Made by a program: the position numbers and the translations under genes. Below are positions 3,636-59,855 of a stretch of 64,000 nucleotides of DNA, one piece after another. Under the pieces are notes generated by a model. It was not told the origin of the DNA and made no database searches. It saw nothing but the letters and a program-made list of their open reading frames with translations. The DNA comes from Bacteroidales bacterium (GTDB lineage Bacteria > Bacteroidota > Bacteroidia > Bacteroidales > UBA10428): the NCBI GenBank assembly GCA_050295515.1, contig JBNKPU010000168.1, positions 47,899-111,898 of the forward strand, written 5' to 3'. Position 1 is the stretch's first letter. Every line of letters starts with the position of its first letter.

Positions 3636-3917
3636 GTCTTGCTGAAAAAGTCAGCAAGTAGTGAGATGAATCATAGCACCGCTATGGTGAACCGACCATA
3701 GGGAGTTCATGAATGTAATAAAAATAAAGTGAGTATGAATAACCGAAACAAGTAAGTGAAACGACTTATATTGAAGCAATTTCAATAGGCAATAGATTTT
3801 CTAATGCATATTCGGGGTTTAAGCAATATTGAAGAATTCCTTGCTCGTAAAACTCATACTATCCATATAACATGCAGATAATGTGTTAAAAATGAGTTTT
3901 TCAACAGGCTATATGTA
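3636..3917 (+). repeat. mosaic MITE-like repeat, copy 1 (composite; lacks the usual left arm, carries the internal insertion module)
   Basis: 3661-3823 matches the copies at 49967, 52309 and 59679, sharing gtgagatgaatcatagcaccgctatggtg, cgaaacaagtaagtgaaacgacttatattgaagcaatttcaata and atagattttctaatgcatattcgggg. The leading hairpin cttgctgaaaaagtcagcaag (3638-3658) recurs at 57953. An imperfect inverted match to it (12 of 15) lies at 3894-3908. Confidence 0.75.
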
Positions 3918-3973
3918 GAATAAGTTAGATAATAAACCCATCAGGGAAATAAAAGTATCGCACCGGTTTATTA

Positions 3974-25021: not shown

Positions 25022-25084
25022 AGATTATTTAGTCAACTGTAAAATAATAACTAACCGATTATTCTTTTAACGTATAATATTTTA

Positions 25085-25345
25085 ATTCTATAAGTTTTTT
25101 AGAAATTTCTGCTAAAACCTGGCAGATTAGCTTTGTAAATTCTTTGTTCTCAAGCCGGACTGGCTCTTACTTTTTATTCACAAGCGTTTATTTTTATATG
25201 GGTTCATGAACTTGCTTTGCTCGGTTCCTTGGATGAAAAAGTAAGCAAAAAATCAAGAAAAGCCTTAGGCCACCCACCTGCCATGTCCAACCCGATTACG
25301 CGAGGCTTTTCATCCGCCCGCACTAACCATCAACATTTGTGCTAT
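25085..25345 (+). repeat. family-2 repeat, copy A (inverted partner at 58195-58480)
   Basis: 25162-25264 equals the reverse complement of 58289-58391 with 1 mismatch in 103 bp (hand alignment). The flanks are more diverged. It contains the long inverted pair cttacttttt/aaaaagtaag and the palindrome gttcatgaac. Confidence 0.85.
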
Positions 25346-49869: not shown

Positions 49870-49966
49870 ATTATGTTCAAGTGATTAAGTACTTATGATA
49901 TTGAGTGATTGTGTCAGATCACTGTTATCACTTTTGCAACAACTCTGCAATTCTATTAGCTACAAG

Positions 49967-50140
49967 GGTTAAACCCGTAATATGCATTAGAAAATCTATT
50001 ACATATTGAAACTGCTTCAATATAAGTCGTTTCACTTACTTGTTTCGATGCACCATAACGGTGCTATGATTTATCTCACCAAGTCCTTCTATTTTTGCAC
50101 TTTCAACCTTCATAACGAAGTTCTAATACATAATCAGGGC
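49967..50140 (-). repeat. mosaic MITE-like repeat, copy 2 (short form) inside the upxY-wzc gap
   Basis: Its reverse complement aligns end to end with 59679-59851 at roughly 90 percent identity by eye. The termini are cccgtaatatgcattag / ctaatacataatcaggg. Confidence 0.85.
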
Positions 50141-50461
50141 TAAATTTAAAATGAATTATTTAGATTGTTTACTGCTTGCCATCCAAAGTTTCAACTTAAG
50201 CTAATTAAATTGAAAAATTGTCAAAATGTTGTATTTTATGCTTTGATTTTCTGATTATAAAATTTTAATCAATACACCAGCTCTCACAGTCAAACTCCTA
50301 GTGTTTCCATAGCTTCGCCCGGTCAGTTACAGGATTAAAATCTGCAATAACTTGGCTATCAGTAGTATAATTAAAATGCCAAAAATTAATTCGTCTGCTT
50401 GGCATACAGAAATTTAGTTAAATAAGGAGATATGCCCTAACTAAACCTTAAATTTAATTGT

Positions 50462-50977
50462 TCACTGAATAATTCTGAGGTAGGTTGGCGGTATTTTTAC
50501 TAACAAATTCTGATTAATATGGTGTATACGCAACAGAAAATGCTTTTCCCTCGCACGAGAGACCAGTTCTCCAATCAAACCTTTTAAGGAGCCAAGTACA
50601 ACTTCAACTGTTTGTCCTTTTTTGAAAGCAGTTTCTGTCAATTCAATTTCAGCATTGCTGTCTATTAAAAGTTTAAGGTGGTTAATCTGCTTCTCGGGAA
50701 TACTAACAGCCCTTCCTTCGAATGTTACATACCGAACTACCCCATGTGTTTGTAGTACCAGGTAATATTCCCTTAATGAAATGTGTACAAAGACATAAGA
50801 AGTAAATAAGGGTACTTCAACCAGTTTCTTGCGGTCGCTCCATTGCCGCAAAGTTTTGTATAAAGGCAGGTAGGCATCCATACCTTCTTTTTGAAGACTA
50901 TTAAATACTTTCTTCTCCCAGCGTGGTTTGGTATATACCGCATACCATATTTTATTTTCATCCTGAGTGCCCGTCAT
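50462..50977 (-). CDS. UpxY-family transcription antiterminator (NusG paralog)
   Basis: WYAVYTKPRWEKKV NGN-domain start and KOW-like KGQTVEVVLGSLKGLIGELV. The start was moved from TTG 51001 to ATG 50977. Confidence 0.8.
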   Translation of the reverse strand: MTGTQDENKIWYAVYTKPRWEKKVFNSLQKEGMDAYLPLYKTLRQWSDRKKLVEVPLFTSYVFVHISLREYYLVLQTHGVVRYVTFEGRAVSIPEKQINHLKLLIDSNAEIELTETAFKKGQTVEVVLGSLKGLIGELVSRAREKHFLLRIHHINQNLLVKIPPTYLRIIQ

Positions 50978-50998
50978 AATAGTACTTTTGTGATAATA

Positions 50999-51006
50999 CA
51001 AATGTA
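50999..51006 (-). promoter_or_regulatory. candidate TAnnTTTG promoter element upstream of upxY
   Basis: The minus strand reads TACATTTG, about 25 nt upstream of ATG 50977. An alternative TATCTTTG lies at 51192-51199 inside the palindrome tctatctttaccaaagataga. Confidence 0.3.
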
Positions 51007-51306
51007 CTACTGATTGAAACCAATAACAAGAAGAAAAAAGTATTTGATTTTCTTACTAATGATAGCGCTGTTTTGTAGGAATTGTTTGTTTATGAAATAG
51101 AATTAGCATCTTCCTTAACCGCTCCCATAAAGGTATTGCCCGGGAATGAATCAAACCTCGCTCCGTCATGAATATAGGCTTCTATCTTTACCAAAGATAG
51201 AACAGGCTGTAGGCCTTATTTATTTCAACCTGATAGCATGGCCCCGGAGATGAACAATAAGAAATTCAAGGTTCTAGGTTGATAGAAAAGATGTATTCTT
51301 TCCCTA

Positions 51307-52113
51307 TTATCGACTACTAACAGGTGAAAAATAATTCAGCACCAAAAACAGTGTTGTAATAGCCCCTAATGTCAAAGATATAGTAGGTATATTGTTCCTG
51401 AAGTTTTTGCTTTTTACTGGCTCTACATATACTATATCGTTAGGTAAAAGGAAAAATCCTTCGGATTTTAGAAGATCTGTACTGGTTAGGTCAAAACGGT
51501 AAGTCTTGGTTCCTTCTACACCTGGCCTTATTACCATAACCTTTCTTCTGTTTCCGAAAGTTGTAACATCACCGGCCGCACTGATCGCCTCAAGAACGGT
51601 TAGCTGGTTATTAAAATTGGTAAACATCCCAGGATTAGCTACCTCACCCATTACAGAATATTTAAAGGAAATAAGTTTTACTATAACTGTCGGATCTTTT
51701 AAAAACTTGTCTGTCTGGGCTACTATTGCAGTTTTGGCCTCCTCAAGTGTTTTTCCAACCACATTTACCTTGCCTATGACCGGGATTTCAACATTGCCTG
51801 AGTCATTGACATTATATCCATAAATATAAAAACTGGCGGCGTTATTATAAACATTTGCACCATACATTGGGGTAGTGTTTATAACTTCTGTGACTTCCTT
51901 ATTCATTGAAATGATCCTGATAAACAATACATCGCGTTGTTGAATTTTATAATCGGGAAAGCTATAAGGGAAAAAGTTGATTGAATCGGCATTTGATTCT
52001 GCAGACTGCAGGTAAACCAAATCCTTATAGCGGGTACAGGACTGTAAGCCTAAAAAAAGGACTATCCCAGAATAGAATATTAGTTTATATATTTTATGAT
52101 TTAGTATTTTCAT
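51307..52113 (-). CDS. wza: polysaccharide export outer-membrane lipoprotein (Wza-like)
   Basis: The lipoprotein signal LFLGLQSC follows ATG 52113; the track start TTG 52176 is less likely. Poly_export-like DYKIQQRDVLFIRI is present, followed by an SLBB-like region. Confidence 0.8.
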   Translation of the reverse strand: MKILNHKIYKLIFYSGIVLFLGLQSCTRYKDLVYLQSAESNADSINFFPYSFPDYKIQQRDVLFIRIISMNKEVTEVINTTPMYGANVYNNAASFYIYGYNVNDSGNVEIPVIGKVNVVGKTLEEAKTAIVAQTDKFLKDPTVIVKLISFKYSVMGEVANPGMFTNFNNQLTVLEAISAAGDVTTFGNRRKVMVIRPGVEGTKTYRFDLTSTDLLKSEGFFLLPNDIVYVEPVKSKNFRNNIPTISLTLGAITTLFLVLNYFSPVSSR

Positions 52114-52308
52114 TGTTTTGCTATAAGTTCCAATTTTAGTTAAAAAAAATCTTTCCCTTAGAAAATAAAGATTCAAGTTAAAAATAAAACTTCATTTTTC
52201 AATATCTGATCCCTGTGGCAAATAATTACCAACAAAATGCCCTTAAACAATTAAGGGCGGCACAAAGGAGTATTAATTTAGCAGAATTCCAGGTATTATC
52301 AGAACGAC

Positions 52309-52503
52309 CTTAAACCCGAAATATGCCTTAGAAAATCTATTAACCTGAGTTCGATATAAGTCGTTTCACTTACTTGTTTCGGTTATTCATACTCACTTTA
52401 TTTTTATTGCATTCATGAACTCCCTATGGTCGGTTCATCATAGCGGTGCCTTCTATTTTTGCATTTTCAACCTTCATAACGAAGCTCTAATGCATAATCC
52501 GGG
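52309..52503 (-). repeat. mosaic MITE-like repeat, copy 3 (long form with internal insertion module)
   Basis: It contains both terminal arms plus the module accgaccatagggagttcatgaatgcaataaaaataaagtgagtatgaataac, shared with copy 1. It ends 3 bp from the gpmI terminator. Confidence 0.85.
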
Positions 52504-52505
52504 AT

Positions 52506-52537
52506 AAAAAAAACCGGGACTATAAAGGTCCCGGTTT
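52506..52537 (-). terminator. rho-independent terminator after gpmI
   Basis: The minus strand reads aaaccgggacctttatagtcccggtttttttt, a 7-8 bp GC-rich stem plus a T8 run. Confidence 0.8.
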
Positions 52538-52560
52538 AAATATTGAATTTGAAAAGTATC

Positions 52561-54075
52561 CTATACCAATACTTTTCCTGTCATATCAGCTGGCACTTCA
52601 AGCCCCATAATAGTCAGAAGGGTAGGGGCAACATCGGCAAGGATACCATCCTTAACACTTTTATATTTATCGCTTACTAGAATGCACGGTACCGGATTCA
52701 AAGAGTGAGCTGTATTTGGGCTGCCATCTTCGTTAACGGCATTATCGGCATTACCATGGTCAGCAATGATCATTGCTGTATAACCATTGTTTTTGGCGGC
52801 TTCAATAACATCACCAACACAAGAATCAACTGTTTCAACAGCTTTTACGATGGCTTCATAAATACCAGTATGTCCAACCATATCGCCGTTGGCGAAGTTA
52901 AGGGCAACGAAATCAACTTCACCCTTGTTGAGTTCTTCAACAATGGCATCGCGTACTTCAGGAGCACTCATTTCAGGTTGAAGGTCGTATGTGGCAACTT
53001 TTGGAGAATTTCTCAAAATCCTTGTCTCTCCAGGGAATTCATCCTCACGTCCACCGTTCATAAAGAAAGTAACGTGGGCATATTTCTCTGTCTCAGCAAT
53101 ACGGATTTGTTTTCCGCCGGCTTTAGAAACCACTTCTCCTATAGTGTTTTGTACATTTTGTTTGTCGAACAATACCTTTACACCTTTATAGTTCTCGTCA
53201 TAGGTAGTCATGGTAATGTAATTTAATGGAATGGTTTTCATCCCATGTTCAGGCATATCCTGTTGTGTAAGCACAGTGGTAATCTGGCGCAGACGGTCGG
53301 TACGGAAGTTGAAACAAATCACAACATCTCCTTCATTTATGGTGCCCACTGGCTTGTTTTCGCCATCAACCATTACAGTTGGTTTGATAAATTCATCGGT
53401 TACGCCTTCTGCATAAGATTCCTCAATTGTTTTTAGAACATCTGTTGAAGGGGTTCCTGTACCGTTTACCATCAGGTCATAGCCAAATTTAATACGTTCC
53501 CACCTTTTATCACGGTCCATTGAGTAGTAACGGCCAATCAGCGAAGCAATTTTTACCTTGCTGCCATCAAAGTGGGTCACAACTTCTTTCATAAAACCCA
53601 GTCCGCTTTTTGGATCAGTATCACGGCCGTCTGTTAAACAGTGAACAAATACATCATTTAGGTCAAAGTCAGCAGTAAGGTCTCCTAGTTTAAACAAGTG
53701 ATGGCTCATGGCATGAACCCCTCCAGGACCAATTAATCCTACAAAGTGGACAGCTTTATTGTTTTCCTTGGCATATTTATAGGCTTCAACCAATGTCTCG
53801 TTTTGGGCGATTGAATTGTCCTCAATTGCTTTATTTATACGCACAAGATCTTGATATACTACACGTCCTGCACCAATATTCAAGTGACCAACTTCAGAGT
53901 TGCCCATTTGTCCATCAGGAAGACCAACATTGTTTCCTGAAGTCAACAATTGTGAAGTTGGGTATTCAGCAGCAAGTTTGTCTATTACCGGTGTATTCGC
54001 CTGAAATACAACATCTCCTTTTCCGTGGTTTCCATTACCCCATCCGTCAAGTATTATCAGAATAGCTTTATCCAT
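52561..54075 (-). CDS. gpmI: 2,3-bisphosphoglycerate-independent phosphoglycerate mutase
   Basis: [22 protein letters not shown] and ADHGNA motifs are present. Confidence 0.95.
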
Positions 54076-54131
54076 TTATCTATATTTTTAGATTTATTAT
54101 CTATGATTTTTTACCGTCAAAAAATGAGCGG

Positions 54132-54139
54132 CAAATATA
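54132..54139 (-). promoter_or_regulatory. candidate TAnnTTTG promoter element for gpmI
   Basis: The minus strand reads TATATTTG, about 57 nt upstream of ATG 54075. Support is a motif match only. Confidence 0.3.
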
Positions 54140-54321
54140 ATTATAAACAACCAAATAGCTGTTAAGTTCATGTGAATTTTGGACCAAAAAAGTCTGAAAA
54201 AAGCTGTTTTACAATACTGTAAGCTCACTACAAAGAAAGATAACGTTGGTTTGACTCTTTTTGAGTCGAATGTTATCATTTGAGACAATAGCCAGGGATT
54301 TGTTGATATATTGAGCATACA

Positions 54322-54329
54322 TAATTTTG
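54322..54329 (+). promoter_or_regulatory. candidate TAnnTTTG promoter element for the 54438 gene
   Basis: TAATTTTG lies about 110 nt upstream of ATG 54438. Support is a motif match only. Confidence 0.25.
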
Positions 54330-54437
54330 GCTTGTATCTTATTTTAGGTTTTTTCGTAAAATAATACTTTCCTATTTTATTGGATTACACCAAAATACTT
54401 TAGAAAAGCCAAAAATCTTATTAATCCTCTAGTTATC

Positions 54438-55859
54438 ATGGACCGAACCTATCAATTACAATTTTGCAAAGTCTGTAAAAACAGTCGTTTTTCTACTCAA
54501 CATGGAATAATATGTGGATTGACAAGAAAACCTGCGGAATTCAAACAATCCTGCGAGCATTTCCTGGAGGTTGAGAATACAAAAGACATGTCCAGTAAAC
54601 CTATAACAGTAGGTGCAAGCCGAGCTTCAAGGCAAAACTTTGGAAATTTGCTTTCCGGTTATTTGGTTTCTTTATACAGTGCATTGGCCATCTTTGCTTT
54701 CGCAGGTATAATAGGACTAAGCGGACTGTCAATTCTTATTATGTTTTTTGGTAGTCTCATAGCATTGGGATCAATAATTATGGCCATTTCAATGCTTTAT
54801 AAACTATGGAGTTATATTATTGTAGAATATAGTATTCAGGGTTTAAAATTACCAGTAAAAAGTGCCGGTCAGGCAATAGGGTATCTGTTTATTCCATTCT
54901 TTAATTTGTATTGGGTATTTGTTGCTATTGGCCAATTGCCGATTTGTCTGAATGAATTGGCCAGAACAAGGCAGGTAAAAATCAATATAGGAGCAAACCT
55001 GGGTTTTATTATAGGGTTTTTATCTCCTTTGGCAATAATTCCTTATGCTGGGACTTTTTTCGGTTTAGTTTCGGCCTTTATACTAATGCCTGTGTTGTTA
55101 ACCAAGGCAATTAAATCCATTGCACTAATTCCTCCTTATACCAGATCTACAGTAGGAGGATTACACATTACTGAAAAGATTGATAGTGCGGAGATAAGGG
55201 ATTTTCGAATGTTATTTAAAACAGATGACCAAGGGTATAATTTCAAATTTGGCTTTCTATTTATAATTGCAGCGTTACTTTATAATCTTACTTATAATCT
55301 GATTAATAATGGATTAAGTTTTGATAATTATAAAGAAATCTATTCTTATGCATACCTGTTTTTTGATGCATTCTTCATTTTTGCTCTCATACTCATAAGT
55401 GGTTCTGTTAATAAATTGCTTTTTGTAATTTTTTCAGCTCTTTTCTACACAATAAGTGCAGCTGGTAGTATGGCTGTATTTTTTTGGAATTACAAGCATT
55501 CTATTCTAGGTACATTTTGGGGTTTTATGAATATAAATACTATTCTGTCATATATTGTTTATGGTGTTCTGTTTGCAGTTAGTCTCGATTTTGTTGTTTC
55601 GAAATGGGGAATAAAATTCTGTGCCATTTTAATCGCAATACTGACCGCTTCGGTTTCAAATCAAATTATATGGATTGCTGAAAACATCATAAACTCTGAA
55701 GAATTCGACTTTAATTATGAGTCTTTACTTTTTTCTGTATTGCATGTCGTATTTATCAGTATAAGTATTTATGTTGGCTTTAAGTGGCATGTTAATTGGA
55801 CATCTGGTTATATTTTCAACAGTCAACCTAAAGAAATATTGGACTACAATTTAGAATAG
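54438..55859 (+). CDS. polytopic membrane protein with N-terminal Cys-rich zinc-ribbon-like segment
   Basis: CKVCKN...GIICGL...C...H at the N-terminus, then at least 10 hydrophobic helices. The segment GYLFIPFFNLYW is vaguely DUF4328-like. Function is unknown. Confidence 0.55.
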   Translation: MDRTYQLQFCKVCKNSRFSTQHGIICGLTRKPAEFKQSCEHFLEVENTKDMSSKPITVGASRASRQNFGNLLSGYLVSLYSALAIFAFAGIIGLSGLSILIMFFGSLIALGSIIMAISMLYKLWSYIIVEYSIQGLKLPVKSAGQAIGYLFIPFFNLYWVFVAIGQLPICLNELARTRQVKINIGANLGFIIGFLSPLAIIPYAGTFFGLVSAFILMPVLLTKAIKSIALIPPYTRSTVGGLHITEKIDSAEIRDFRMLFKTDDQGYNFKFGFLFIIAALLYNLTYNLINNGLSFDNYKEIYSYAYLFFDAFFIFALILISGSVNKLLFVIFSALFYTISAAGSMAVFFWNYKHSILGTFWGFMNINTILSYIVYGVLFAVSLDFVVSKWGIKFCAILIAILTASVSNQIIWIAENIINSEEFDFNYESLLFSVLHVVFISISIYVGFKWHVNWTSGYIFNSQPKEILDYNLE

Positions 55860-55866
55860 GAAATAG

Positions 55867-55905
55867 AAAAAAGGGCTTCAATGTTTTCAAATGAAATCCC
55901 TTTTT
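55867..55905. terminator. bidirectional hairpin between convergent genes
   Basis: aaaaagggcttca...tgaaatcccttttt is an imperfect stem flanked by an A-run and a T-run. It could serve both the 54438 gene and pepF. Confidence 0.55.
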
Positions 55906-55925
55906 CTATAAATCAAAATGGATTT

Positions 55926-57809
55926 TTACTTCTCATCCAAAAGTTTCTCAATTTCATCCATAATAGCATTCATGGCTTCGATAGTCTTATCGAAAGGTTC
56001 TGAAGATGTCATGTCCACTCCTGCTTTTTTCAACAGTTCGATCGGATAATCAGAACTGCCCGAGGACAAGAATTTAAGGTAATTGTCAACCATTCCTTTC
56101 TCTCCTTTAAGTACTTTTTCGGCCAATGATACCGAAGCTGTAAAGGAAGTACTGTACTGGTATACATAGAAATTATAATAAAAATGTGGGATGTATGCCC
56201 ATTCCATTTCAATATAATCATCTACATAGCAAATACCCTTGTCATGTCCGTAATAGCGTTTTACGATATCGGTATATAGTTTCGATAGATATTCTCCAGT
56301 CAAAGCTTCTCCCTTCTCAGCAGCTTCATGCGTTTTAAGTTCGAATTCGGCAAACTGGGTCTGCCGAAACAAGGTACCTTTAAAACCATCGAGCCGGCTC
56401 ATTAACAAAGACAGTTTTGCATCTTTGTCCTTTATTGTTTTAAGCATTTCAGCAAACAAAAGCTCTTCGTTAAAAGTGGAGGCTACTTCAGCTACAAAAA
56501 TGGGGTAGTCGGAAGTAGGATAAGGCTGGAATTTATTTGAAAAATAGCTTTGCATAGTATGCCCTAGTTCATGGGCAAGTGTACTAACATCATTATACTG
56601 TCCGTTGTAATTGAGCAAGATGTAAGGATGCATATCGTATGCAGAACCCTGCGAATATGCACCTGACCGTTTGCCTTTTGTTGGATAAACATCTATCCAG
56701 TTATTTTCAAAAGCTTTTTTTATTGTGCTTGTATATTCATCGCCTAGTGGAGCAAGTGCTTTTAGCACCATATCCTGAGCCTCTTCATATGAATACTCCA
56801 GGTTAATATCCTTAACAACAGGCGCATATAGGTCAAGGTATTTAATAGTGTCTACACCCAACATTCTTTTTTTAATTTTCAAATACCTGTGAAAGGCATC
56901 CAGGTTCTTGTTTACATTTTCGATAAGTGAATGATAGACATCTGTTGAGATATTCTGGGGGAACAGGGCTGCATCTAAAGCTGATTCGTATTTTCTGGCT
57001 TTGGCATAGAATATATCTTTATTTATTGTCCCAGAAAGCATCTCTCCAAAAGTGGCTTCGTATTTTTTAAAGTTTTCGAAAAAAACTTTAAAAACCAGTT
57101 CTCGATCATCCCTGTTTTCTGAAGCACGATATTTACTGAAACCTGCACTACTCAGGACAACTTTTTCACCTGTGCTAAGGGTTACTTCAGGATTGATCAT
57201 TTCAGCATTTTTATATGTGCTGTAAACCGAACTGGTTGTAGAAGCCATTGGACCTGTAAGAGCTAAAATTCTTTCTTCGGCTTCGCTAAGCGAGTGCTCT
57301 TGCTTACGGAATAGATCAAAAAGGCCCATCCTGTATTGCCCAAGTTTTGGCTCTTCTTTTATGAATCCTTCAATAGTCTTCCAGTCTGTGGTCAATATCT
57401 CCGGGTCGATAAAGGCCGCTTTGGTAGAAAAATCTGAGAAAACCTGCAGCATTTCTTTTTGCATGCCCGAATATTTCATGTTCTTGGTATCCTCATCGGA
57501 ATGCATACTAGCATAAACTAAAAGTAGAAGGGCTTGTTTGCTTAAGTCTGAATTAAACTCAAGGCAGGTTAGCAGTTGTCCTGCCGATTGGGTTAAGGTC
57601 CCTTTGAAAGATTCAATCTGGGGAATTTTTTCGACCAATTGATCTTTTGATTCCTTCCAGGCTTCTTCTGAAGGGAATAAATCGTTCAGGTCCCATTTGT
57701 ACTTGGATTCAATTTCATCTCTAGTTTTTTGACCGTTGATGTGTTGGACCCCTAAAATAAAAAGGATAAAAATTGCACTGATGGCGGCTTGTAATGTTTT
57801 GATTTTCAT
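55926..57809 (-). CDS. pepF: oligoendopeptidase F (M3B metallopeptidase), secreted
   Basis: HELGHTM zinc motif, signal peptide MKIKTLQAAISAIFILFILG, and length and pattern typical of PepF. Confidence 0.9.
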   Translation of the reverse strand: MKIKTLQAAISAIFILFILGVQHINGQKTRDEIESKYKWDLNDLFPSEEAWKESKDQLVEKIPQIESFKGTLTQSAGQLLTCLEFNSDLSKQALLLLVYASMHSDEDTKNMKYSGMQKEMLQVFSDFSTKAAFIDPEILTTDWKTIEGFIKEEPKLGQYRMGLFDLFRKQEHSLSEAEERILALTGPMASTTSSVYSTYKNAEMINPEVTLSTGEKVVLSSAGFSKYRASENRDDRELVFKVFFENFKKYEATFGEMLSGTINKDIFYAKARKYESALDAALFPQNISTDVYHSLIENVNKNLDAFHRYLKIKKRMLGVDTIKYLDLYAPVVKDINLEYSYEEAQDMVLKALAPLGDEYTSTIKKAFENNWIDVYPTKGKRSGAYSQGSAYDMHPYILLNYNGQYNDVSTLAHELGHTMQSYFSNKFQPYPTSDYPIFVAEVASTFNEELLFAEMLKTIKDKDAKLSLLMSRLDGFKGTLFRQTQFAEFELKTHEAAEKGEALTGEYLSKLYTDIVKRYYGHDKGICYVDDYIEMEWAYIPHFYYNFYVYQYSTSFTASVSLAEKVLKGEKGMVDNYLKFLSSGSSDYPIELLKKAGVDMTSSEPFDKTIEAMNAIMDEIEKLLDEK

Positions 57810-57952
57810 AGCAATATAATTAATAATATGACATTAAGCTTCCTATAACCAATAGGTAGCCTTTAACTTACTCTATAAATATTGCCGCTATAAATCGCTA
57901 AAGTAAATGAAAATCTTGAAGATCGAAAAAGGAAAAAGGAAATATATCTAGG

Positions 57953-58153
57953 GCTTGTTGAAAAAGTCAGAAAGTAGTGAGATGCGACTTGACAAAATGA
58001 AGACGTATTAGCATACTTCGAATTGCAGGCAAAGAGGTAGATTGCTACTTTCTGGCTAATACTTTCGGATTTATTATCAACTTTTTAGGTGCACATAATT
58101 TTAACCAGGATAATGTATTAGAACTTCGTTATGAAGGTTGAAAGTGTAAAAAA
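57953..58153 (+). repeat. mosaic repeat fragments (leader hairpin module plus isolated left arm)
   Basis: 57953-57985 gcttgttgaaaaagtcagaaagtagtgagatg matches 3637-3668. 58105-58153 ccaggataatgtattagaacttcgttatgaaggttgaaagtg matches the left arm of copies 2, 3 and 6. The 10 bp inverted pair cagaaagtag/ctactttctg spans 57968-58054. Confidence 0.7.
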
Positions 58154-58194
58154 TATTTACAAGCTTGATCAATTTTTTAAAGTTGCTTGCGGGA

Positions 58195-58480
58195 AGGGCT
58201 GAACGTTAAAAAGCAACACTAAATGTGTTGTTTTAGTGAGGAGCCAGCTTGCAGGGCTGATAAAAAAAAGTTGCTAGTGGGCGGCCTAGGCTTTTCTTGA
58301 TTTTTTGCTTACTTTTTCATCCAAGGAACCGAGCAAAGCAAGTTCATGAACCCATATAAAAATAAACGCATGTGAATAAAAAGTAAGAGCCCGTCCGGCT
58401 AGAGGACAAAGGTTATTGACAGCTAATCTGCCAAGTTTTTGCAGGATTTTTAAAAAAGCTGGTAGAATTACAAGGATATT
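58195..58480 (-). repeat. family-2 repeat, copy B (inverted partner of 25085-25345)
   Basis: 58289-58391 is the reverse complement of 25162-25264 with 1 mismatch in 103 bp. The 66 aa ORF predicted here has no counterpart ORF at copy A. Confidence 0.85.
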
Positions 58481-58537
58481 TATCAACGCAACTATTTTTA
58501 TTTAGTTGATTATGTCGTATTTCATTTTTAACTATTT

Positions 58538-58571
58538 AATAGATTTTCTAATGCATATTCAGGGTTAAAGC
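58538..58571 (+). repeat. isolated right arm of the MITE-like repeat
   Basis: aatagattttctaatgcatattcagggttaaagc matches the right terminus of copies 1 and 6. Confidence 0.7.
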
Positions 58572-58634
58572 AAAGCGCGTTTAGACTTACTAAGCTAAAA
58601 GGATAAGGGAAACGGATAGAAGGAAAACAAGACA

Positions 58635-58886
58635 GTCCGTAAGGAAAGACCAAATGCCGATAAGGAGTAGACAAAGGTCCATAAGGAATACAAGAATGTC
58701 AGGTAACTATAGCCGAAATGCTTTAAGGAATACAAGAACGTCCATAAGGAACGCACAAAGGTCCATAAGGAATGCACAAACGTCCATAAGGAATGCACAA
58801 ACCTCCATAAGGAACGCACAAACGTCCATAAGGAATGCACAAACCTCCATAAGGAACGCATAAACGCCTTTAAGGAACAAGCAAAC
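58635..58886 (+). repeat. 21 bp tandem repeat array, 12 units
   Basis: TAAGGA recurs at 58640, 58661, 58682, 58724, 58745, 58766, 58787, 58808, 58829, 58850 and 58871, with a degenerate unit at 58703. The six central units (58740-58865) follow GTCCATAAGGAAYGCACAAAS almost perfectly. Edge units degenerate, with weaker echoes back to about 58598. Confidence 0.9.
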
Positions 58887-58947
58887 CATTCTCCAATAAA
58901 TATTGGGGATTTAAATAAATAGTTTAATTAACCTAAATTTCAATTAA

Positions 58948-59637
58948 ATGGGAACAAAAAAAACGTTATTGGAAGCTGAAACATTAGAACAGTAACGTGT
59001 CGCATTGGAAAATGCAGAAAACCAAACCGAAATTGCATCCGTAATGGCTGAATTGGGCTATGACAATGCAGAAATCACAGAAGGCAAGGCATTACTGGTT
59101 ACCACACGCCAAGCCTATGATTTCAACCAAACAGAAGACGAGGCATACGAGGGTTTTTCAAGTGTAAAATCAGAGCTGGAATCTACTTACAGGTCACATC
59201 GCAAAAAAGCGAAAGTCGTGTTCAGAAAAGATTCGCTTACAATGGATAAGCTGTCAATTTCTGGCAGTATTCCGCAGGCGTTTGTTCGCTTGTTGGAAAA
59301 AGCTAAAAAGTTTTATTCCACAGCAGGCGCAGATGAAGATATCCAAAACAAGCTGGCAAGGTTACAAATATCAGTAGAGGATATTACTGCTGGTGGTAAA
59401 CTAATAACTGATGTAGAAGCAGCAAGGGCTTTATACCTTAGAGAAAAAGGTGAATCACAAAATGCAACAAAAGTAAAAGATGCTGCATTTGCCAAACCAG
59501 ACCAACGTTTGCGGGAAGAGCTTACAAAACCATCCTGGTTTACCAAAAAGGCATTAGACTTTTCCCCTACACAAAAAAATAAATTAGCTCAGCTGAGCTC
59601 CACTTCGTTCCGGTTCGTGCTCCGTCAGCAACTTTAA
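58948..59637 (+). pseudogene. helical hypothetical protein interrupted by an in-frame TAA (candidate pseudogene)
   Basis: ATG 58948 opens MGTKKTLLEAETLEQ, then TAA at 58993-58995. The same frame continues into the 210 aa ORF from TTG 59005 (ENAENQTEIASVMAELGYDNAEITEGKAL). Alternatively the TTG start is genuine. Confidence 0.35.
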
Positions 59638-59678: not shown

Positions 59679-59851
59679 TCCGGATTATGTAATTGAACTT
59701 CGTTATGAAGGTTGAAAGTGCAAAAATAGAAGGACTTGGTGAGATGAATCTTAGCACCGCTATGGTGCTTCGAAACAAGTAAGTGAAACGACTTATATTG
59801 AAGCAATTTCAATATGGTTTAGATTTTCTAATGCATATTTCGGGTTAAACC
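59679..59851 (+). repeat. mosaic MITE-like repeat, copy 6 (short form, complete)
   Basis: Left arm tccggattatgtaattgaacttcgttatgaaggttgaaagtgcaaaaatagaagg and right arm tagattttctaatgcatatttcgggttaaaccc. Internal hairpins are catagc/gctatg-type and tattgaa/ttcaata. It ends 4 bp from the stop codon of the VIT-vWA gene. Confidence 0.85.
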
Positions 59852-59855
59852 CAGC

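What the first reader, a model, noticed from the sequence alone, without database searches (positions are those of the whole stretch)
58635..58886. Twelve-unit 21 bp tandem array with a phased TAAGGAA core
Units of exactly 21 bp (consensus GTCCATAAGGAAYGCACAAAS) repeat head to tail. The six central units are almost identical, alternating C/T at position 13 and G/C at the unit junction. Edge units are progressively degenerate, which is the pattern expected for an array homogenised from the centre. A 21 bp period is two helical turns, so every TAAGGAA would face the same side of the DNA. That would suit cooperative protein binding of the iteron or operator-array type. The array ends about 60 bp upstream of the ATG at 58948. 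If transcribed, it would present 12 regularly spaced AAGGA motifs, reminiscent of protein-sponge RNAs. Because 21 is divisible by 3, five of the six frames stay open. This explains the three overlapping ORF predictions, which I regard as artefacts.
Basis: partly seen in the sequence, partly recalled or inferred. Interest (0 to 1): 0.6.

Follow-up and report, generated by a model that had tools for sequence, protein, structure and literature searches.

The report
Repeat leader of a dead PQLLE gene
The 21-base repeat array is real and non-coding: it is a recently expanded copy of an apparently undescribed repeat region that sits in front of almost every gene of an uncharacterised protein family (PQLLE) across Bacteroidota, although here the gene behind it is broken.

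Summary
**Observation.** It is confirmed: 12 units lie in exact 21-bp register at 58635-58886, and six central units are near-identical.

**Identity.**
- The ATG at 58948 starts a pseudogene of the 'PQLLE family' (NCBIfam NF052641). It has an in-frame TAA in place of an invariant Tyr, and the C-terminus is lost.
- In 79 of 83 homologous loci from many Bacteroidota genera, the 300 nt before the start codon are periodic at 21, 42, 63 or 84 nt.
- The unit sequences differ widely between loci (TAAGGAA..., GAAGCAA..ATGTAAC, GGAAAAATGCAA...). The period, the purine-rich sense strand (56-76% purines in all 67 arrays) and the phase relative to the ATG are kept.
- Forward frames carry stop codons in many loci, and substitutions show no 3-periodicity, so the ORFs are artefacts.
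- The leader is better conserved than the gene's four-fold sites, for example 0.91 against 0.60 with no indel.
- A promoter-like box lies upstream of the arrays, which places them in the 5' leader.

**Mechanism (inferred).** The array most likely acts as an unstructured, multivalent RNA platform that controls the downstream gene, possibly bound by the PQLLE protein itself. A DNA operator array is the main rival. [quoted passage not shown]

**Status here.** In this window the array is probably a relic.

The parts
58575..58634 (+). Start of the conserved leader (GCGCGTTTAGAC...) and two relic 21-nt units (58593, 58614) with AAGGA in phase.
   Evidence: It aligns with TAGCGTTTTAGGCAGAT...AAGGAA...ACGGCAATAAGGAATAC at the start of the leaders of L006, L009, L011 and L092. 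The register is shown.
58635..58886 (+). Twelve-unit 21-nt array. The consensus is GTCCATAAGGAAYGCACAAAS, with 63.5% purines on this strand.
   Evidence: It has the same period, strand bias and position as the arrays upstream of homologous genes.
58740..58865 (+). Six near-identical central units (18-21 of 21 positions shared), read as a recent local amplification.
   Evidence: The close relatives L006, L009 and L011 have no such block, whereas the flanking units have orthologues there.
58845..58886 (+). The last two units (..AACGCATAAACGCCTTTAAGGAACAAGCAAAC), which are ancestral terminal units.
   Evidence: They are nearly identical to GCGCATAAACGCCTTTAAGGAACAGGCAAAC in L006, whose protein is about 65% identical.
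58890..58909 (+). Hairpin TCTCCAATA-AA-TATTGGGGA followed by TTTAAATAAAT. It resembles a weak terminator and is specific to this lineage.
   Evidence: A comparable hairpin occurs in only 13 of 69 loci, against 7.5 +/- 2.6 in shuffles.
58924..58947 (+). Conserved pre-start motif TTAATTAACCTAAATTTCAATTAA. The family consensus is ATTAtTAACCyTTAAAAatt, lying 8-25 nt before the ATG.
   Evidence: which lists the last 50 nt of 69 loci.
58948..59637 (+). Pseudogene of the PQLLE family. It reads MGTKKTLLEAETLEQ, then TAA at 58993-58995 in place of the Tyr that is invariant in the 12-sequence alignment A2. Homology continues to about 59500-59520, and the C-terminal ~40 residues, including the PQLLE motif, are replaced.
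   Evidence: The same TAA is present in assembly GCA_050296555.1.

Best explanation
The array is this genome's copy of a conserved non-coding repeat region that precedes genes of the PQLLE family, which encode all-helical proteins of about 219 residues.

**Architecture in intact relatives:**
- a promoter-like box;
- a purine-rich array of about 180 nt made of 21-nt units;
- the motif AACCyTTAAAA;
- the ATG and the PQLLE ORF;
- a hairpin with covarying pairs;
- a terminator-like hairpin.

**Most likely mechanism (inferred).** The array is transcribed as an unstructured 5' leader. There it offers 4-16 evenly spaced sites to a protein that binds cooperatively and sets translation or stability of the mRNA. 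The best candidate binder is the PQLLE protein itself, which has two homologous halves and the conserved basic motif HRKKAK..FR.D.

**Evolution.** Whole-unit slippage changes copy number but keeps the period.

**In this window.** The gene is dead (nonsense codon, lost C-terminus, lost 3' hairpin). The array is therefore probably a relic whose six central units expanded recently.
For: **Shown.**
- The best autocorrelation lag in the region -300..-20 is a multiple of 21 in 79 of 83 loci.
- 123 of 126 repeat-finder rows upstream of the gene have period 21, 42, 63 or 84, against few elsewhere in 408 kb of flanks.
- Arrays start at a median of -232 and end at a median of -34 from the ATG.
- The unit phase relative to the ATG is kept within 2 nt in 53 of 67 loci.
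- All 67 arrays are purine-rich on the sense strand (56-76%, median 67%). The sequence upstream of them is 54% purine.
- The arrays have no significant fold: z is -0.2 for the window and the median is -0.7 over the arrays.
- Leader identity exceeds four-fold-site identity. For L022 against L049 the values are 0.91 and 0.60 with no indel, while the far-upstream sequence is at 0.52.
- Matches to the promoter-box pattern TAnnTTT[GA] are enriched just upstream of the arrays: 5.1 per kb, against 1.1 per kb between array and ATG. The box ttcgTTATATTTAACatt is conserved there.
- The association extends to a relative with only 23% identity (L157).
- The 3' hairpin has 13 of 18 pairs with compensatory changes.
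- Four further loci (L011, L016, L034, L073) carry a hairpin inserted inside the pre-start motif AACC|TTAAAA.

**Inferred.**
- The compensatory changes in the 3' hairpin suggest, without proving, that non-coding RNA parts of this transcript are under selection.
- The inserted hairpin would keep the two halves of the pre-start motif adjacent only if the region folds as a single strand.
Against: - No transcript data exist, and the promoter assignment rests on a motif.
- A 21-bp period is exactly two turns of B-DNA, as expected for a one-face DNA operator array.
- Nothing shows that PQLLE binds nucleic acid. Its model is a long-helix fold without significant matches to solved or viral structures.
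- Period and phase could be kept partly by the mechanics of whole-unit slippage rather than by selection.
- Pairs of loci used in the conservation test are not phylogenetically independent, and recombination could inflate leader identity.
- Two arrays of this type lie before other genes (L073, L076), so the binder need not be encoded by the adjacent gene.
Confidence: 0.5

Rival explanations
1. The array is a DNA operator or recruitment array. It would hold phased double-stranded sites, one per two helical turns, for a DNA-binding protein (PQLLE itself or a host regulator). That protein would coat one face of the helix and repress or activate the gene.
For: - The period is strictly 21 bp across very different unit sequences.
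- Paralogues within one genome carry different unit types, as expected for cognate protein-site pairs: L016/L042, L030/L044 and L079/L086.
- PQLLE has a conserved basic motif and two homologous halves.
- The array lies next to the gene, as in autoregulated operators.
Against: - A strong, uniform purine bias on the sense strand in all 67 arrays has no obvious reason for a duplex site.
- There is no sub-period at 10-11 bp.
- The arrays lie downstream of the promoter-like box and run to about -34 from the ATG, which leaves no room for a promoter between array and gene.
- The protein has no recognisable DNA-binding domain.
Confidence: 0.22
2. The module is a type III-like toxin-antitoxin or abortive-infection system. 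The repeats would be processed into small RNAs that neutralise a toxic PQLLE protein.
For: - The layout is the same: tandem direct repeats immediately upstream of a single gene on the same strand (PMC3401426).
- Many loci show a 42-nt super-period.
- Neighbours are often restriction-modification genes, AAA_21/RloB genes or integrases.
- Paralogues in one genome have different repeats.
- A hairpin lies between array and gene in the window and in a minority of loci.
Against: - The units are 21 nt, degenerate (60-75% alike) and unstructured, with 4-16 copies. Known families have 31-62 nt units in 1.9-5.6 copies (PMC3401426, Table 2).
- The terminator hairpin is not conserved: 13 of 69 loci, against 7.5 expected.
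- The protein has no hit in PADLOC or Pfam, and its all-helical model is unlike ToxN.
- The leader continues into a conserved pre-start motif.
Confidence: 0.08
3. The array is a neutral minisatellite. A slippage-prone repeat would persist and drift without function, at least in this genome, where the gene is dead.
For: - The window copy precedes a pseudogene and has a young amplified block of six near-identical units.
- An assembly of a close relative breaks inside the array.
- Whole-unit gain is seen between close relatives: L017 and L019 differ by exactly 21 nt.
Against: At family level:
- The array is present in nearly every locus.
- Individual units are orthologous and conserved between loci whose four-fold sites are near saturation, without indels.
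- Unit positions 1, 2 and 6 never vary in the L022 group.
Confidence: 0.15
4. The array encodes heptad repeats, such as SIRNAQT or VHKECTN, or a reverse-strand peptide.
For: - 21 = 3 x 7.
- Two of the three sites that vary among the central units are synonymous in the SIRNAQT frame (from the sequence).
- That ORF is in the same frame as the downstream gene.
Against: - Four stop codons separate that ORF from the ATG.
- In relatives the longest forward open stretch across the array is often 27-40 codons (L006, L063, L079).
- There is no 3-periodicity of substitutions.
- The reverse frames are open in all three phases alike, which is a composition effect.
- Pfam matches are weak and below threshold.
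Confidence: 0.02

Closest known systems
Type III toxin-antitoxin loci (ToxIN, CptIN, TenpIN)
   Same: - A tandem array of direct repeats lies immediately upstream of one protein gene on the same strand.
- Repeat sequences differ between homologues and between paralogues.
- The loci are often in accessory or defence regions.
   Different: - Units are 21 nt rather than 31-62 nt, with more copies, and are degenerate.
- No fold is predicted.
- There is no conserved terminator between repeats and gene.
- The protein is all-helical, with no similarity to ToxN, CptN or TenpN.
- An extra conserved 3' hairpin is present.
Iteron arrays with their Rep gene (R6K, pPS10, F) and ParR-parC centromere/operator arrays (pSK41, R1)
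   Same: Direct repeats with a period of about two helical turns lie next to the gene of the presumed binding protein. Different specificities coexist in one genome.
   Different: - No family member was found on any of 72,556 plasmids.
- The protein has no winged-helix or ribbon-helix-helix domain.
- The arrays have a strong strand bias.
- The arrays lie between a promoter-like box and the start codon.
- Several copies can occur per chromosome.
Leaders with multiple protein-binding repeats (the TRAP-binding (G/U)AG repeats of the Bacillus trp leader) and CsrB/RsmZ sponge RNAs with repeated GGA
   Same: Many evenly spaced short motifs on a single RNA bind an oligomeric or cooperative protein to control expression.
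   Different: - The period is 21 nt, not about 5 nt.
- The motif differs between loci.
- GGA is neither conserved nor presented in hairpin loops.
- The array is in cis to an ORF rather than a free small RNA.
- The binding protein is unknown.
Bacterial minisatellites (VNTR)
   Same: Head-to-tail units, whole-unit copy-number change and a young homogenised core.
   Different: The array and its individual units are conserved across genera at a fixed position before one gene family. They are better conserved than synonymous sites.

Membership tests
Type III toxin-antitoxin (criteria of PMC3401426) | [quoted passage not shown] | tested here: met
   Window 58635-58886. Arrays are present in 79 of 83 homologous loci.
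Type III toxin-antitoxin (criteria of PMC3401426) | A short palindromic terminator between the repeats and the gene. | tested here: not met
   A hairpin is present in the window (58890-58909), but only in 13 of 69 loci, against 7.5 +/- 2.6 in shuffles. Most arrays run straight into the pre-start motif.
Type III toxin-antitoxin (criteria of PMC3401426) | Repeat length 31-62 nt in 1.9-5.6 copies (Table 2 of the paper). | tested here: not met
   Units are 21 nt, in 12 copies here. Across the family the median array length is 182 nt, with up to 16 copies. A 42-nt super-period exists in some loci.
Type III toxin-antitoxin (criteria of PMC3401426) | A toxin of the ToxN/CptN/TenpN endoribonuclease families. 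| tested here: not met
   No Pfam match for the window's remaining ORF, and no PADLOC match for intact relatives. The structure model is all-helical with pLDDT 96.8. There is no significant structural match.
Type III toxin-antitoxin (criteria of PMC3401426) | A toxic protein neutralised by the repeat RNA. | not testable with these tools
   This needs expression experiments.
Plasmid iteron origin with Rep gene | Direct repeats of 17-22 bp at about 21-22 bp spacing next to the gene. | tested here: met
Plasmid iteron origin with Rep gene | The gene encodes a winged-helix Rep initiator and resides on plasmids. | tested here: not met
   No Pfam family was found and the model is all-helical. A tblastn search found no match in 72,556 plasmids or 50,697 phages.
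CsrB/RsmZ-type sponge RNA | Repeated GGA motifs presented in hairpin loops. | tested here: not met
   The fold z-score is -0.2 and no unit hairpins appear in the centroid structure. GGA is absent from most homologous arrays. There is no Rfam match.
CsrB/RsmZ-type sponge RNA | A CsrA/RsmA partner in the genome. | not tested
   The window was not searched for CsrA. From general knowledge, CsrA is rare in Bacteroidota.
PQLLE family protein (NCBIfam NF052641), downstream gene | A profile match above the curated cut-off. | tested here: inconclusive
   Relatives score 265 bits against a cut-off of 80. The window ORF was not scanned against NF052641 itself. Against a profile built here from alignment A3 it gives E 1e-61.
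PQLLE family protein (NCBIfam NF052641), downstream gene | An intact reading frame that includes the C-terminal PQLLE motif. | tested here: not met
   TAA at 58993 replaces Tyr16, which is invariant in alignment A2. The C-terminal region is not recognisable in any frame.
PQLLE repeat leader (defined here) | A 21-nt period, a purine-rich sense strand, an end within about 100 nt of the ATG, and the pre-start AACCyTAAA motif. | tested here: met
   The window array is 63.5% purine, ends 61 nt before the ATG, and TAACCTAAA lies at 58929-58937.
PQLLE repeat leader (defined here) | The covarying hairpin 15-25 nt after the stop codon. | tested here: not met
   It is absent from the window. A copy of the dispersed inverted-repeat element follows at 59680-59852.

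The most novel reading that the evidence does not exclude
The PQLLE module is a self-contained, previously unrecognised RNA-protein system. It comprises the 21-nt repeat leader, an all-helical protein with two homologous halves, a covarying 3' hairpin and a conserved end motif, CCAG-N4-5-TAACA. In this reading the protein polymerises on its own repeat RNA, one protein per 21-nt unit. The system would act as a new kind of RNA-scaffolded switch, an RNA-antitoxin defence or addiction module, or a mobile cassette that moves between genomic islands of Bacteroidota.
Probability: 0.15. Interest if true: 0.85.

Novelty: new variant of a known kind. Interest (0 to 1): 0.65.

Why it matters
**Scale of the family.** The PQLLE family has about 2,500 clusters at 50% identity. 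It has no known function, no Pfam domain and no paper in the library searched.

**What was found.** The family turns out to carry two conserved non-coding partners:
- a 21-nt periodic, purine-rich repeat leader;
- a covarying 3' hairpin.

Neither is in Rfam.

**Why this is useful.** Tandem-repeat leaders kept under selection across orders are rare in bacteria. Bacteroidota also start translation without Shine-Dalgarno pairing (general knowledge), so an unstructured repetitive leader may reveal a way of controlling expression specific to this phylum. The hypotheses are testable in cultured species that have intact modules, such as Draconibacterium, Labilibaculum, Tenacibaculum, Lutibacter and Saccharicrinis.

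**Annotation.** The overlapping ORFs in such arrays should not be called, and some database proteins of 250-360 residues in this family may be N-terminally over-extended calls.

Tried and rejected
**RNA families.** Rfam gave nothing.
- At curated thresholds on the window and on 20 related loci, the only matches were a tRNA and a group II intron elsewhere.
- At permissive thresholds only chance microRNA-like hits appeared.

**Coding.** Rejected on frames and substitution pattern.

**RNA structure of the array.** Not significant on either strand.

**Sub-periods.** Periods of 7 or 10.5 nt are absent.

**Function of the protein.**
- Pfam on the window's ORF, and PADLOC and PHROGs on intact relatives, gave nothing. 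Profile searches against the sequences of solved structures also gave nothing.
- Foldseek against the PDB and against viral models gave only generic long-helix hits, with E at least 0.05.

**Metagenome scan.** The scan for three phased TAAGGAA cores was too permissive.
- Most of the 80 loci fetched are unrelated 7- or 21-bp repeats.
- Only L092 and L157 belong to this family.
- The scan therefore says little about exclusivity.

**Copy-number polymorphism in close strains.**
- The identical protein P0001 could not be located.
- The contig of GCA_050296555.1 starts inside the array.
- GCA_050294285.1 loses synteny at 58461, before the array.

**Literature.** Searches for PQLLE, for 21-bp repeats in Flavobacteria and for type III systems in Bacteroidetes found nothing relevant.

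**Leader-hairpin pairing.** Units of the ATGTAAG type resemble one arm of the 3' hairpin. This does not hold for loci with other unit types, so pairing between leader and 3' hairpin was dropped.

Full report
**1. The observation**

The sequence at 58635-58886 consists of twelve units in exact 21-bp register.
- Tandem Repeats Finder reports period 21, 7.3 copies, 86% matches and score 217 for 58724-58877, and a weaker row for 58640-58688.
- The 18-base core occurs seven times with up to three mismatches, all inside the array. The chance expectation is 0.19.
- Units 6-11 (58740-58865) share 18-21 of 21 positions.
- Unit 4 has lost the core.
- Two further relic units lie upstream at 58593 and 58614.
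- The array is 63.5% purine on the + strand and occurs once in the window.
- The window is 35% G+C. A housekeeping protein has its best named matches in uncultured Bacteroidales, Salinivirgaceae and Marinilabiliales genomes.

**2. The gene behind the array**

The ATG at 58948 opens MGTKKTLLEAETLEQ, followed by TAA at 58993. The same frame continues as RVALENAENQTEIAS... to 59637.
- Homologues are proteins of about 219 residues starting MATRPK.SEAETLEQYR(V/I)ALENAE. The TAA replaces a Tyr that is invariant in the 12-sequence alignment A2.
- After about residue 171 the window sequence matches the family in no frame, so the C-terminal part with the name-giving PQLLE motif is gone.
- The family is NCBIfam NF052641, 'PQLLE family protein' (265 bits against a cut-off of 80). 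No Pfam, PADLOC or PHROGs family matched.
- No paper in the library mentions it.
- It is large, with 2,535 clusters at 50% identity at E up to 0.001.
- A model built with 112 sequences has pLDDT 96.8. It is all-helical, with two repeats of two short helices plus a 56-residue helix.
- Foldseek found nothing significant in the PDB or among viral models.
- A second assembly (GCA_050296555.1) has the same nonsense codon, and its contig begins inside the array.

**3. The array is a family trait**

I fetched 80 genomic loci of homologues from one genome per species, and several metagenomic loci. They span three groups:
- Marinilabiliales and other Bacteroidales;
- Flavobacteriales (Lutibacter, Tenacibaculum, Polaribacter, Mariniflexile);
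- Cytophagales (Cyclobacterium, Ekhidna).

Periodicity:
- In the 280 nt before the start codon, the best autocorrelation lag is 21, 42, 63 or 84 in 79 of 83 loci (66 of 70 distinct sequences). These are only 4 of the 86 lags tested.
- Of 126 repeat-finder rows in these upstream regions, 123 have such a period. The remaining 408 kb of flanks hold only a handful.
- Averaged over 62 arrays, identity at lag 21 is 0.58 against about 0.30 at other lags. There is no sub-peak at 7 or at 10-11.

Position and composition:
- Arrays start at a median of -232 and end at a median of -34.
- Unit sequences differ greatly: TAAGGAAYGCA..., GAAGCAACCCAAWTGTAAC, GGAAAAATGCAAATGTAAC, GTAGGAAYRS.ATGTAAG and others.
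- A common profile remains, nAAYRSA.AAWGYAAS...RAAG, with A-rich positions 1-2, 6, 12-13 and 18-19. Its phase relative to the ATG is kept within 2 nt in 53 of 67 loci.
- All 67 arrays are purine-rich on the sense strand (56-76%, median 67%). The sequence upstream of them is 54% purine.
- A relative with only 23% identity (L157) also has a nine-unit array 189 nt before its start.

**4. Not coding**

- In many loci all three forward frames are interrupted within the array. The longest open stretches are 33 codons in L006, 27 in L079 and 33 in L063.
- Reverse frames are open in all three phases alike, as expected for a pyrimidine-rich strand.
- Among nine distinct leaders of one well-sampled group, 57 variable sites in the array fall 22/18/17 over the three codon phases.
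- In the window, four stops separate the SIRNAQT ORF from the ATG.

**5. Under selection**

- For pairs of loci whose four-fold degenerate sites are 55-80% identical (135 pairs, mean 0.63), identity was measured in three flanking regions. Unrelated sequences give 0.53 under the same aligner.

| Region | Mean identity |
|---|---|
| Leader, -250..-1 | 0.71 |
| Far upstream, -550..-300 | 0.61 |
| First 200 nt after the stop codon | 0.75 |

- Clear single cases: L022 against L049 gives protein 0.92, four-fold sites 0.60, leader 0.91 without any indel, and far upstream 0.52. L009 against L010 gives 0.73 at four-fold sites and 0.94 in the leader.
- Individual units are orthologous between loci. The window's last two units and its first units align with those of L006, L009, L011 and L092, whereas the six-unit central block has no counterpart there.
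- Whole-unit change is seen: L017 and L019 differ by exactly 21 nt.
- Caveats: the pairs are not independent, four-fold sites may be near saturation, and recombination on mobile islands could contribute.

**6. DNA or RNA?**

- A conserved box..GTATTTTCGTTATATTTAACATTT.., lies 20-60 nt before many arrays. From general knowledge, it resembles the Bacteroidota -7 promoter element TAnnTTTG.
- Matches to TAnnTTT[GA] are 5.1 per kb in the 110 nt before the arrays. They are 2.3 per kb further upstream, 1.4 per kb in the arrays and 1.1 per kb between array and ATG.
- The arrays run to about -34 and continue into the conserved motif ATTAtTAACCyTTAAAAatt, 8-25 nt before the ATG (window 58924-58947). This leaves no room for a promoter after the array.
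- Together with the uniform strand bias and the lack of predicted structure, this favours a transcribed, single-stranded leader.
- The exact two-turn period remains the main argument for a duplex operator.
- No transcript data were available.

**7. Comparison with known systems**

Type III toxin-antitoxin loci share the layout. Their published criteria (PMC3401426) are not met:
- the units are 21 nt, not 31-62 nt;
- there are many degenerate copies;
- there is no conserved terminator (13 of 69 loci with a hairpin, against 7.5 +/- 2.6 in shuffles);
- the protein is unrelated.

Plasmid iterons and ParR centromeres share the period. However, a representative intact family member (P0044) found no match in 72,556 plasmids or 50,697 phages, and the protein has no winged-helix or ribbon-helix-helix domain.

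CsrB-like sponges are excluded as a family: GGA is not conserved among arrays and is not presented in loops.

Neighbouring genes vary between loci and form no fixed operon. They include:
- metal-efflux genes;
- type I restriction-modification genes;
- AAA_21/RloB genes;
- integrases.

Five genera share an identical 300-nt upstream region, consistent with horizontal transfer.

**8. What the array is in this window**

It is the leader of a decayed module.
- The gene has a nonsense codon and a replaced C-terminus.
- The 3' hairpin is missing.
- Copies of a dispersed inverted-repeat element abut both ends: 58527-58573 and 59680-59852.
- A genome that is 99.98% identical up to 58461 has different sequence beyond that point.
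- The six near-identical units are best read as a recent slippage expansion, possibly under relaxed constraint.

**9. Verdict**

The array belongs to a conserved, apparently undescribed cis-element of the PQLLE family.
- I rate its identity and its non-coding, selected nature at about 0.9.
- I rate the proposed RNA-platform mechanism at about 0.5.
- The DNA operator array is the main rival.

Noticed in passing
L022 3678-3745, and the same place in 39 other loci (15-25 nt after the PQLLE stop codon); absent from the window: A conserved hairpin lies just after the PQLLE stop codon: TTGTAAGC-ACA-TTGGCAAGC ... GCTTGCCAA-AGA-GCTTACAA, with a variable tip.
- 13 of 18 pairs show compensatory changes.
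- The fold z-score is -4.5.
- There is no Rfam match.
- A strict pattern finds it only at this position in the 208 loci held.
- A terminator-like hairpin, AACCGCC-TTTAA-GGGCGGTT, follows.

It looks like an undescribed structured element.
   Followed up: partly
L022 about 3900-3925 and the equivalent position in 17 other loci (about +262 after the stop codon): The conserved block after the gene ends at an invariant CCAG-N4-5-(T)AAC(A). In the L022 group the upstream edge of the module reads GTTGCTGATTTTTTAACAAAA and the downstream edge CAGTTGCTAACAAAG. These could be direct repeats or attachment-site cores of a mobile cassette of about 1.2 kb.
   Followed up: no
L073 5238-5440 (+) and L076 1404-1585 (-): Two further arrays of the same type are not followed by a PQLLE gene.
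- One lies 150 nt before an alpha/beta-hydrolase gene. It has the TATTTAAC box upstream and AACCTTTAA before the ATG.
- The other lies about 210 nt before a lipoprotein gene.

Both are within 2.5 kb of a PQLLE gene. They may be a portable leader or relics of lost genes.
   Followed up: partly
window 58993-58995 and 59500-59637: The gene after the array is a pseudogene. An in-frame TAA replaces an invariant Tyr, and the last ~40 residues are unrelated to the family in every frame. The TAA is shared with assembly GCA_050296555.1.
   Followed up: yes
window 3676-3823, 49966-50144, 52309-52509, 59680-59852; split copy at 58096-58152 plus 58527-58573: A dispersed element of 150-240 bp has terminal inverted repeats (CCGGATTATGTATTAGAA ... 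TTCTAATGCATATTTCGGG) and sits in intergenic regions, like a miniature transposable element. One copy appears split by about 375 bp of inserted DNA just upstream of the array.
   Followed up: partly
window 58277-58473 and 25080-25277 (inverted): A second dispersed repeat of about 198 bp (89% identity between copies). The genome GCA_050294285.1 is 99.98% identical to window 49926-58461 and then continues with different genes (tRNA synthetase, RbfA, FtsX, SprB). The rearrangement breakpoint therefore lies inside this repeat.
   Followed up: partly
L011, L016, L034, L073 and L092, 17-35 nt before the ATG: The same small hairpin (GTCTGCC-loop-GGCAGAC/GGC) is inserted between AACC and TTAAAA of the pre-start motif. 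It occurs in lineages with different array types.
   Followed up: no
L020, L021, L025, L027, L033 (Paludibacter, Mangrovibacterium, Draconibacterium, Saccharicrinis, Lentimicrobium): These loci have an identical 300-nt upstream sequence in genomes of five genera, next to cation-efflux (CDF) and other metal-resistance genes. This points to recent horizontal transfer on a metal-resistance island.
   Followed up: partly
P0123 (331 aa), P0132 (299 aa), P0211 (359 aa), P0242 (280 aa) in the protein library: Some database members of the family carry N-terminal extensions of 60-140 residues. These are probably gene calls running through the open frames of the repeat array.
   Followed up: no
window 21597-49869 (- strand): A run of about 25 tightly packed ORFs on the minus strand, apparently one long gene cluster. 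It was not examined.
   Followed up: no
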